NCBI GenBank assembly: GCA_050613775.1
Contig: JBODTK010000010.1
Location: 372,001 to 436,000 of the forward strand
From: Neocallimastix sp. 'constans'
Lineage: Eukaryota
DNA length: 64,000 bases
Direction of reading: 5' to 3'
Positions 50,075 through 51,132 of this stretch are shown here, in pieces. The notes below the pieces were generated by a model. It worked only from the letters and a program-made list of their open reading frames with translations, did no database searches and was not told the origin of the DNA. Position 1 is the first letter of the stretch. Every line of letters begins with the position of its first letter. The position numbers were made by a program, and so were the translations under genes.

Positions 50075-51132
50075 GAGTATTAAAGAGCCATACATAGTGA
50101 GTTTTCGATCGTTTTAATATTAATGATTTTTCTTAATCTATTATTTTTATCACTATTCATGGACGAAAAAAGCACGGAGTTTAGCAGTACACAAGCACAA
50201 TAATAAACTTCCTGGAGAAATAAGGAAGTTTTACTGGGAAAATATTCATTATTCAAGCACTCCTGCGATCAGATCTACAAAATACAAGAAATTTAAATTT
50301 GGTTTTAAAAAATTTATTCAACGTCTATCACTTAAATATTCACAATTTTCTCTTGGATTTTTTTGGATTGGACGAATTAAATGTGGATTCAAATTTGATG
50401 TAAAAACGTATGTTAAAAGTAATCTAGTATCAGAAAATTGCCCAACATACTGCCCTTGTTGTGGTGAGAGTAACAGCATACCTAGTTTTACACACTGGAT
50501 ACTTTTATGTCCTAAATTTGAAGAATTTAGGCGACATTTCATTCCCTTTGTTGATGAAATTTTTATTAATTTTTCTCTAATTGTTCATGAGAAATCATTG
50601 AACATTCCTGATGATAAAGAGGAAGATTTTGATGATAATATCAATTTTTACGTGCTGTGTCTCCTTCTTGGCGGAAATGCAGTATTTGAAATCTTAAAGA
50701 TCGGCTCGGGGGAAAGAAGGCGATATATTAATAATATTTTTCAATCACCTTCGAACGAGTCTTCTTTCCCGATTTCATATTTTGTGGGGCTTGCGGAATT
50801 CCTTACTAACGTTATGCCTATTGTGATTGGTGATTTTTACACCATGATCGATATGTATAGTGTTAGACCTACCGTTGTCAAGAGCGTCGACGTCGTAACG
50901 ATAAGGCAAAGAAGAAATTCTGATACAGATTCGAATGATAATTTTCATCCACATGGAGTTATCTTCGATGAATGGGAAGAGTTAGAGGCCTTTTCGTCCT
51001 CGAATCTCATAACGTAGTTTTTTAATATTAATATAAAAAATAATTTCATGTATTTAAATTTCATGTATTTTTTAAAAAAAATATTATTAAATAAAGTTTA
51101 TTCCTAGTCTAAAAAAAAAAAAAAAAAAAAAA
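50075..51132 (+). mobile_element. 5'-truncated LINE with poly(A); open frame from at least 50157 to 51017
   Basis: In frame with the listed ORF 50598-51017: SWTKKAR...FYW...RIKCGF...CPTYCPCC...HWILLC (CCHC knuckle of non-LTR ORF2)...LLGG...KSVD. Ends agtct plus poly-A at 51111. Confidence 0.85.

What the first reader, a model, noticed from the sequence alone, without database searches (positions are those of the whole stretch)
50882..50908. Covarying two-stem RNA motif shared by divergent LINEs and short retroposons: candidate cis-element of a LINE-SINE system
Seen, six copies read in element orientation as GAGC/outer/bulge/inner/loop/inner'/AW/outer'/A. 50882-50908(+): GAGC GTC GAC GTCG TAA CGAT AA GGC A. 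11058-11084(-): GAGC GTC GAC GTCG TAC TGAT AA GGC A. 52841-52867(+): GAGC GTC GAC GCCG TAC CGGT AT GGC A. 61550-61579(-): GAGC GTC AAT GCTG AAGAAA CAGT AA GAC A. 21929-21957(-): GAGC GCC AAT GCAG AGTAA CTGT AA GGC A. 23421-23444(+) is degenerate: GAC GAC GC-G TAC CAGT AT GGC A. Inner-stem pair 2 alternates U-A/C-G, pair 3 alternates C-G/U-A/A-U, and the outer middle pair alternates U-G/U-A/C-G. In the three LINEs the motif lies inside the ORF (KSVD/KSVN), yet the residues encoded by the stem vary, and it also occurs in non-coding elements. Established: stringent-type LINEs (e.g. L2/CR1 with partner SINEs) recognise a 3' stem-loop that SINEs share. Inference: this is an RNA recognition element, here embedded in coding sequence at variable distance from the tail. 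I do not recall a description of it in fungi.
Basis: partly seen in the sequence, partly recalled or inferred. Interest (0 to 1): 0.9.

Follow-up and report, generated by a model that had tools for sequence, protein, structure and literature searches.

The report
RNA hairpin hidden in LINE code
A 27-30-base stretch with compensating base-pair changes sits inside the protein-coding end of gut-fungus LINE retrotransposons and is the only internal sequence their non-coding SINE parasites share with them, so it likely folds as an RNA hairpin that the LINE's copying enzyme would use to pick its template.

Summary
Five copies match exactly (0 in 100 shuffles). The sixth is a decayed copy in a tRNA-headed SINE family, whose intact copy carries a further compensatory pair.

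The motif recurs in 53 hits from AT-rich metagenome loci. All four variable pairs hold in 22 of 26 distinct strings, against 12 of 55 chance matches. Protein coding does not explain it: the codons are rare, the residues vary, and four SINE families keep it as their only internal match to LINEs. Independent double changes number only about 4-5.

The LINEs have a single endonuclease-RT ORF; their clade is unresolved (RTE-X is a lead). Back-translation suggests the same core at the ORF end of distant relatives (about 30% identical), in all three frames, often with its UAA as the stop codon. Fits: 9 of 75 inside the ORF against 4 of 375 control windows, and 13 of 75 at the stop against 520 of 30,000 pseudo-ends. 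No DNA was available to confirm this.

Best reading (0.6): a template-recognition hairpin like the 3' stem-loops of stringent LINEs, but inside the ORF and 50-355 nt from the tail. Binding is untested. No Rfam match.

The parts
50882..50908 (+). Motif copy A, inside the C-terminal ORF of an A-family LINE, 44 codons before the stop and about 200 nt before poly(A)
   Evidence: 48.3 bits
50146..51133 (+). 5'-truncated A-family LINE: ORF end with CCHC finger, 3' UTR, poly(A); 98% identical to full-length L014
11058..11084 (-). Motif copy B, in the ORF of a B-family LINE fragment, 311 nt before poly(A)
   Evidence: 47.3 bits
10718..11378 (-). 5'-truncated B-family LINE with poly(A); 93.5% identical to full-length L033
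52841..52867 (+). Motif copy C (non-coding), 53 nt before poly(A)
   Evidence: 41.5 bits
52839..52969 (+). 131-bp retroposed copy of the L038 short-element family, 5'-truncated 2 nt before the motif; 13-bp target-site duplication at 52826-52838 and 52970-52982
61550..61579 (-). Motif copy D, in the ORF of a D-family LINE, 25 codons before the stop and 281 nt before poly(A)
   Evidence: 45.6 bits
61241..63567 (-). Internally deleted D-family LINE with 13-bp target-site duplication (61228-61240, 63568-63580), nested in an A-family LINE on the + strand
21929..21957 (-). Motif copy E (non-coding, 5-nt loop, D-type bulge), 114 nt before the tail
   Evidence: (35.9 bits)
21803..22035 (-). 5'-truncated copy of the ~540-nt L080 SINE family (multicopy in run X2)
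23421..23444 (+). Motif copy F, decayed (one base lost, one outer pair broken)
   Evidence: not detected by model R1
23075..23512 (+). Decayed tRNA-headed SINE (F family); its intact relative in L033 has an Rfam tRNA head (38 bits) and an intact motif with a G-C outer middle pair
11612..12292 (-). Decayed A-family LINE copy with poly(A) whose motif-bearing part is deleted

Best explanation
The motif is a conserved sense-strand sequence, predicted to fold as a small RNA hairpin (GAGC leader, 3-bp stem, 3x2 internal loop, 4-bp stem opened by an invariant G-U pair), that likely serves as the handle by which the LINE's single endonuclease-reverse transcriptase protein picks its RNA template for target-primed reverse transcription. 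Shown: sequence and pairing are conserved across LINE families and four SINE families; the constraint is on bases, not amino acids; SINE-LINE homology starts at the leader and ends at or within 12 nt of the outer stem. Inferred: in the LINE mRNA the ribosome unwinds the hairpin in the last 24-89 codons; it refolds and the new protein binds it in cis. The protein would then prime at the poly(A) end 200-355 nt away, looping out a spacer of free length and sequence. SINEs would have captured only this handle (at least twice, once from each LINE subfamily) plus a few subfamily-matched terminal bases, and so borrow the enzyme in trans. The invariant internal loop, G-U pair and leader would be the read-out surface, and the variable apical loop would not.
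For: Pairing at the positions left free by the search pattern: 22 of 26 distinct AT-rich strings against 12 of 55 GC-rich chance strings. Three pairs change on both sides and three use G-U, which favours the sense strand. A fourth outer-pair type (G-C), outside the pattern, occurs in the L033 SINE. Motif codons are rare in these ORFs (AGC 5.9% of Ser, GTC 13% of Val, ACG/CCG/CTG 4-7%), joint probability 2e-5 to 3e-7 per family in 13 families. The motif window ranks first among windows over 669 codon columns for rare-codon excess (0.80; mean -0.01, sd 0.14) and joint first for third-position identity (0.76; mean 0.46, sd 0.08), while amino-acid identity is average (0.56 against 0.54). Proteins retrieved by RT similarity, not by the motif: 25 of 28 complete gut-fungal ORF ends are codon-compatible with it, against 0 of 28 control segments. 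L125/L059 and L126, retrieved by RT peptides, carry it with a new bulge. It is the only internal blastn match between the SINE tails and 12 LINE families. Elements carrying it show poly(A) and target-site duplications. Among thousands of contigs laid on copy A, the frequent changes listed inside the motif are in the loop, a G-C to G-U change, and one leader C>T. Precedent: UnaL2 needs its internal loop (PMC1636434); ZfL2 ORF2 binds its cognate stem-loop (PMC4176376); a monocot L1/SINE hairpin shows compensatory changes (PMC3472496).
Against: No binding or mobility data. Independent double changes are few: one branch among 12 LINE families and about 3-4 more among SINEs. Four of 26 distinct strings break a pair. 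The leader C>T variant reaches about 7-14% of summed depth in runs X1/X2. With 60 nt of flank on each side, the predicted helices keep high probability in D/E-type copies (outer stem 0.62-0.96, inner stem 0.71-1.0) but fall below 0.1 in several A/B-type copies, including window copies A and B. Known recognition hairpins lie in the 3' UTR next to the priming end, unlike this one. Three of 28 complete near ORFs miss the descriptor. Eleven of the 12 families were found by the pattern.
Confidence: 0.6

Rival explanations
1. It is a real RNA structure needed for retroposition but read by a host factor or the ribosome (RNP assembly, stability, localisation or a pause near termination), in the way Alu uses SRP9/14 (recalled), rather than by the LINE protein.
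For: It sits at the ORF end, and in distant relatives its UAA often coincides with the stop codon. The core appears conserved across proteins only about 30% identical, more than is reported for R2 3' UTRs (PMC11194090), which would suit a conserved host partner.
Against: SINE motif subtype and terminal bases track a LINE subfamily (GAC-type bulge with GTCT ends; AAT bulge with CGTT end), as expected for cognate protein-RNA pairs. This rests on three SINE families; L063 has a GAT bulge and a different end.
Confidence: 0.25
2. It is part of a self-cleaving ribozyme or a processing site that cuts just 5' of the leader.
For: Copy C begins 2 nt before the motif, one L004 copy begins at it right after a poly(A) run, and SINE-LINE homology starts at it.
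Against: No Rfam match in the window or four loci. It is only 27-30 nt. It lies inside an ORF that is intact for over 1300 codons. Only 2 of 58 hits start there, and the L004 contig looks chimeric. LINE ribozymes are described at 5' ends (PMC5786205). C's 5' junction has 3 nt of microhomology with the target, as in ordinary truncation.
Confidence: 0.06
3. It is conserved for its amino acids in LINEs and is only an ancestral relic in SINEs that captured a LINE fragment.
For: KSV(D/N) is conserved, LINE-only covariation is a single branch, and most loci were selected by the pattern.
Against: Rare synonymous codons are fixed. Residues vary (K/R/E/M/W, V/A, D/N/K, T/P/L/M/S). SINE flanks have lost all LINE similarity while the stems changed in pairs. 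Distant relatives fit in other frames.
Confidence: 0.04
4. It is a DNA-level site (CpG-rich palindromic binding site or antisense promoter).
For: A/B copies hold short CpG palindromes in a 17% GC window.
Against: D/E copies lack the palindromes. G-U pairs alternate with Watson-Crick pairs on one strand only.
Confidence: 0.03

Closest known systems
3' tail stem-loop of stringent L2-clade LINEs: eel UnaL2/UnaSINE1-2, zebrafish ZfL2-1/2-2 (PMC1636434 passages; PMC4176376 abstract)
   Same: About 30-36-nt hairpin split by an internal loop, shared by a single-ORF LINE and its SINEs; internal loop needed for mobility.
   Different: There it lies in the 3' UTR next to the terminal repeat and the apical GGAUA loop is read. 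Here it is inside the ORF, 50-355 nt from a poly(A) tail, the apical loop is free, and the internal loop, G-U pair and leader are invariant. No sequence likeness is claimed.
Monocot L1 lineage LINE1-1_ZM with ZmSINE2/3 (PMC3472496, part 1 of 3 read)
   Same: Poly(A)-tailed LINE/SINE pair sharing a hairpin with compensatory changes and a conserved flanking 4-mer.
   Different: There it is the last ~45-50 nt of the element. Here it is an internal, coding island, and the sequence between it and the tail is not shared.
R2Bm 3' UTR two-stem core (PMC11194090 abstract and Discussion)
   Same: Structured 3' RNA selects the template; binding and template positioning use different RNA parts, as would a motif plus terminal bases here.
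   Different: R2 has a different endonuclease class (recalled), the element is non-coding, and little sequence is conserved between species.
Ectocarpus RTE-X LINEs and RTEX-N1/N2_Ec32 (PMC12477816 passages and supplement 1 rows)
   Same: Single EN-RT ORF; non-autonomous partners share a 60-100-bp 3' segment. Unnamed Ectocarpus/Pylaiella proteins are among the RT relatives found here (35-37% identity).
   Different: (C)n tails; no RNA structure described. Whether those proteins are RTEX-1/2, and whether the shared 60 bp holds this motif, could not be checked (FASTA supplements unreadable).
Fungal SINE/LINE pairs Mg-SINE/MGR583 and SINE2-1_BG/Tad1-24_BG (PMC3747384 table)
   Same: tRNA-headed fungal SINEs with a LINE-derived tail.
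   Different: Tad-type partners with a terminal shared tail; no motif of this kind reported in the passages seen.

Membership tests
Stringent-type LINE 3' recognition stem-loop | Shared by a LINE and its SINEs | tested here: met
   Four SINE families and 13 LINE families
Stringent-type LINE 3' recognition stem-loop | Stem-loop supported by compensatory changes | tested here: met
   3 of 7 pairs change on both sides; about 4-5 independent events; R-scape not run
Stringent-type LINE 3' recognition stem-loop | Located in the 3' UTR next to the terminal repeat, with SINE tail colinear to the LINE end | tested here: not met
   Inside the ORF, 198-355 nt from poly(A) in LINEs; shared island only 27-41 nt
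Stringent-type LINE 3' recognition stem-loop | Bound by the LINE protein and required for retrotransposition | not testable with these tools
   Needs binding, TPRT or mobility assays
tRNA-derived SINE (SINE2) | tRNA-derived head, F family | tested here: met
   L033 copy matches Rfam tRNA, 38 bits, above gathering 29; window copy decayed and missed by ARAGORN
tRNA-derived SINE (SINE2) | tRNA-derived head, E/L080, L063 and C/L038 families | tested here: inconclusive
   L080 and L063 share a 75-nt head (73%) with a B-box-like word (my reading) but no Rfam or ARAGORN hit; no head seen for L038
tRNA-derived SINE (SINE2) | Multicopy, non-coding, A-rich tail, target-site duplication | tested here: met
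   E family 445 contigs in run X2; C has poly(A) and a 13-bp duplication; no duplication found for E, F, L063, L080, L038
Known self-cleaving ribozymes and other Rfam families | Match to a curated covariance model | tested here: not met
   No relevant hit at E up to 10 in the window, or at E up to 5-10 in L080, L063, L038, L093 and the L033 SINE
Known self-cleaving ribozymes and other Rfam families | Self-cleavage | not testable with these tools
   Contigs cannot show RNA ends; no pile-up listed
APE-type non-LTR retrotransposon | APE endonuclease plus RT in one ORF, C-terminal CCHC finger, poly(A), target-site duplication | tested here: met
   Pfam RVT_1 and Exo_endo_phos; ORFs of 1367-1500 codons; finger; duplication of D
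RTE-X clade | RT groups with named RTEX elements | not testable with these tools
   No named RTEX reference sequence available; tree holds only unnamed proteins, brown algal and Batrachochytrium proteins, and one catfish protein that I read as RTE from a recalled motif

The most novel reading that the evidence does not exclude
The hairpin is the ancestral template-recognition element of a whole single-ORF LINE clade spread over distant eukaryotes (gut fungi, a branch that includes brown algal elements, and many unnamed lineages). It is written into the end of the coding sequence in all three reading frames, and in at least 13-16 lineages its invariant UAA is the stop codon itself, so that translation termination exposes the handle to the protein just made.
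Probability: 0.45. Interest if true: 0.78.

Novelty: new variant of a known kind. Interest (0 to 1): 0.6.

Why it matters
How LINE proteins choose their RNA is known in detail for only a few elements, all through 3' UTR hairpins next to the priming end or through poly(A). A 27-nt handle that works from inside the ORF, at a free distance from the tail, and that SINEs can capture on its own, would be a minimal and portable template tag. It would make cis-preference and SINE parasitism directly testable with point mutants. It could also be useful for RNA-templated gene insertion, and it gives a marker for finding SINEs in anaerobic gut fungi. If the distant matches are confirmed in DNA, it would be an unusually deeply conserved retrotransposon RNA motif and a case of RNA structure fixing where an ORF ends.

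Tried and rejected
No whole genome is held, so genome-wide counts of copies, truncation points and processed pseudogenes were not possible.

DNA for the distant relatives could not be obtained: viral contigs with alignments A1 and A2 gave no confirmed locus, and tblastn of P0221 against plasmids and phages gave no match.

The pattern scan of viral contigs gave 2 GC-rich hits. None of the 71 GC-rich pattern loci has LINE homology, so they were used as the chance control.

Rfam gave nothing for the motif. ESM Atlas gave only unnamed clusters and a zf-RVT lead for the C-terminal part, and nothing above 0.9 for the N-terminal 135 residues. PDB hits are human L1 ORF2p and R2 only, which does not place the clade.

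Laying contigs showed no pile-up of ends and no splice joint in the L080 SINE; contigs cannot show RNA ends, so this is not evidence of absence. Motif-spanning deletions in run X2 are all single low-depth contigs, but so are deletions elsewhere, so they do not discriminate.

An upstream helix pairing with the GAGC leader appears in some folds but has no partner in L014/L028; not adopted. A likeness to group II intron domain V and to twister (both recalled) was dropped because the needed pairings are absent. Three look-ups of earlier findings returned nothing.

Full report
OBSERVATION. The window is 16.8% GC. All six strings are present as stated. A pattern built from them gives 5 exact matches and none in 100 shuffles. 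Covariance model R1 finds the same 5 and nothing else at E up to 2. Rfam has no relevant match. No whole genome was available. Named homologues of the LINE protein are from Neocallimastix lanati and a JGI set labelled Orpsp1_1, and the runs holding the DNA include gut and faecal metagenomes, so the host is likely an anaerobic gut fungus.

ANATOMY. Copies A, B and D lie in frame near the end of a LINE ORF. Full-length relatives have one ORF of about 1370-1500 codons with APE endonuclease, RT and a C-terminal CCHC finger. D has a 13-bp target-site duplication and is nested in an A-family LINE. C is a 131-bp copy with poly(A) and a 13-bp duplication, truncated 2 nt before the motif; L038 is a longer member of its family. 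E is a truncated copy of a ~540-nt element (L080) that is multicopy in run X2. F is a decayed SINE whose relative in L033 has an Rfam tRNA head. A fourth short family is L063. The motif lies 198-355 nt from poly(A) in LINEs and 53-114 nt in the short elements. The last bases before the tail track the subtype: mostly GTCT for GAC-bulge LINEs and for C and F, CGTT (once CCTTT) for AAT-bulge LINEs and for E; L063 differs.

IS IT STRUCTURE? One pattern scan of metagenome contigs gave 121 loci (stopped at 59 of 64 parts). Splitting at 40% locus GC gave 58 AT-rich hits (53 from loci, 5 from the window; L003 dropped as a duplicate of L004) and 71 GC-rich hits (2 of them viral) with no LINE homology, used as control. 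All four pairs left free or half-free by the pattern are formed in 22 of 26 distinct AT-rich strings and 12 of 55 control strings; the fully free inner pair 3 is Watson-Crick in 22 of 26 against 17 of 55.

On a 22-row alignment, from which I left out copy F and the four strings with broken pairs (so its 100% pairing is by selection), RNAalifold returns the proposed structure. Three pairs change on both sides and three use G-U, which favours the sense strand. The L033 SINE, found by R1 and not by the pattern, has a G-C outer middle pair and a new bulge.

Against this: among 12 LINE families with DNA, the double changes map to one branch; SINEs add about 3-4 events. In 60-nt flanking context, several A/B copies, including window copies A and B, are predicted to fold otherwise.

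IS IT PROTEIN? No. The ORFs have GC3 of 0.19-0.34, yet all 13 families use AGC for Ser (5.9% background), GTC for Val (13%) and a G-ending codon before Ser; joint probabilities are 2e-5 to 3e-7. Over 669 codon columns the motif window is first for rare-codon excess (0.80; mean -0.01, sd 0.14) and joint first for third-position identity (0.76; mean 0.46, sd 0.08), at average amino-acid identity. Eleven of those 12 families were pattern-selected, so I sought unselected evidence. Of the gut-fungal proteins retrieved by RT similarity, 28 have complete ends; I left out 10 that are truncated or stop before the motif position (P0010, P0038, P0189, P0192, P0194, P0196-P0200). 25 of 28 are codon-compatible with the paired core, against 0 of 28 control segments; the 3 misses keep near-motif peptides. 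L125 and L126, fetched by RT peptides, carry it. Between SINE tails and 12 LINE families the only meaningful blastn match is the motif, starting at the leader and 27-41 nt long (F's match to L033 is the SINE copy lying in that locus).

DISTANT RELATIVES. Among the 82 more distant RT hits, I kept 75 (7 dropped as truncated, near-group or RTE-like); median pairwise identity is 31%, in 57 clusters at 45%. With the descriptor derived from fungal copies only, 9 of 75 fit wholly within the last 60 residues (4 of 375 control windows; 60 decoy descriptors give 0-3, mean 0.6), in frames 0, 1 and 2. Another 13 of 75 fit with the motif's UAA as stop codon (520 of 30,000 pseudo-ends); together these cover 20 of 57 clusters. 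A relaxed descriptor, adjusted after I saw the peptides, gives 15 and 22 of 75 (8 of 375; 631 of 30,000). 22 of 75 proteins, in 16 clusters, end in (R/S/G)PxG, against 9 of 29,700 internal positions; four others read Tyr at the same place, as UAU would give.

These fits are scattered over a FastTree RT tree, and one (R/S/G)PxG-ending protein, P0212, is sister to the named Ectocarpus/Pylaiella proteins (0.998), though it fits neither descriptor. 38 of 75 fit neither class (motif absent or in the UTR), and the one Batrachochytrium protein tested does not fit. This is inference from protein only; no DNA could be fetched.

MECHANISM. Shown: base-level conservation, pairing, retention as the sole LINE-derived island in SINEs, and retroposition hallmarks. 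Inferred (0.6): the hairpin is the LINE protein's template handle, bound in cis after the ribosome clears it, with priming at a poly(A) end a free distance away; SINEs captured it at least twice. Rivals: host-factor or ribosome read-out (0.25), ribozyme or processing site (0.06), coding or relic (0.04), DNA site (0.03).

COMPARISON. It likely works like the stringent-type 3' stem-loops of UnaL2 (PMC1636434, passages), ZfL2 (PMC4176376, abstract), monocot L1 (PMC3472496, part 1 of 3) and R2 (PMC11194090, abstract and Discussion). It fails their positional criterion: it is coding and not terminal. A Repbase-wide survey found SINE middles derived only from 5' parts of RTE and Vingi (PMC5786205, passages). 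Fungal SINE/LINE pairs are known for Magnaporthe and Blumeria (PMC3747384, passages). Ectocarpus RTE-X elements have a single EN-RT ORF and non-autonomous partners sharing 60-100 bp of 3' end (PMC12477816, passages and supplement 1 rows); its FASTA supplements could not be read and bear directly on the clade-wide claim. PMC3411680 (passages) only names the Deceiver clade.

Ten searches of the open-access library (listings only unless cited above) found no description of this motif or of SINEs in anaerobic gut fungi. Repbase, Dfam, SINEBase and subscription journals were not searched.

VERDICT. A real, apparently undescribed structured RNA motif of a LINE-SINE system; a new variant of a known kind. 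Interest 0.6, and 0.78 if the clade-wide, stop-codon-overlapping reading (probability 0.45) is confirmed in DNA.

Noticed in passing
L080:2390-2470 and L063:706-782: Two SINE families share a middle segment that reads like a spliceosomal intron (GTAAGT donor, pyrimidine-rich 3' end, YAG acceptor) followed by a shared CTGAGAGG word. No splice joint was seen in three RNA or possibly-RNA contig sets, which cannot exclude splicing.
   Followed up: partly
window 50655-50720 and 50775-50810 (LINE codons about -78, -64 and -36 from the motif): Weaker peaks of rare-codon constraint upstream of the motif (0.22, 0.52, 0.58); a pyrimidine run and a purine run could pair. Possibly further RNA structure in the LINE ORF; not seen in SINEs.
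   Followed up: partly
window 51040-51111, 10750-10810, 61270-61330: LINE 3' UTRs carry CATGTA and AATAAA words upstream of the tail, like a polyadenylation signal (recalled consensus). The SINEs instead have two hairpins between motif and tail.
   Followed up: no
window 60291-64000: An A-family LINE on the + strand is split by the D element and runs off the window end, so its motif cannot be checked.
   Followed up: yes
window 23170-23182: Behind its tRNA head the F-family SINE has 13 nt identical to the start of the L063 head, hinting at a dimeric head.
   Followed up: no
L124-L127: Gut-fungal LINE contigs lie inside bacterial and archaeal MAGs of the GTDB collection, likely binning contamination.
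   Followed up: no
P0002 residues 1-135: The LINE ORF has an N-terminal extension before the endonuclease with no Pfam or Atlas match; a candidate RNA-binding part.
   Followed up: partly
L065:7-5112: A divergent LINE with a 1702-codon ORF holding a collagen-like low-complexity insert, motif intact.
   Followed up: no
window 28616-30058: Intact-looking MULE transposase ORF with FLYWCH finger.
   Followed up: no
window 10088-10661: D-family LINE fragment on the + strand without its 3' end, abutting the poly(A) of element B.
   Followed up: no
window 3453-8734 and 40030-44817: Host genes that I read from recalled motifs as a trehalose-phosphate synthase/phosphatase and a Sel1-repeat protein; not tested.
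   Followed up: no
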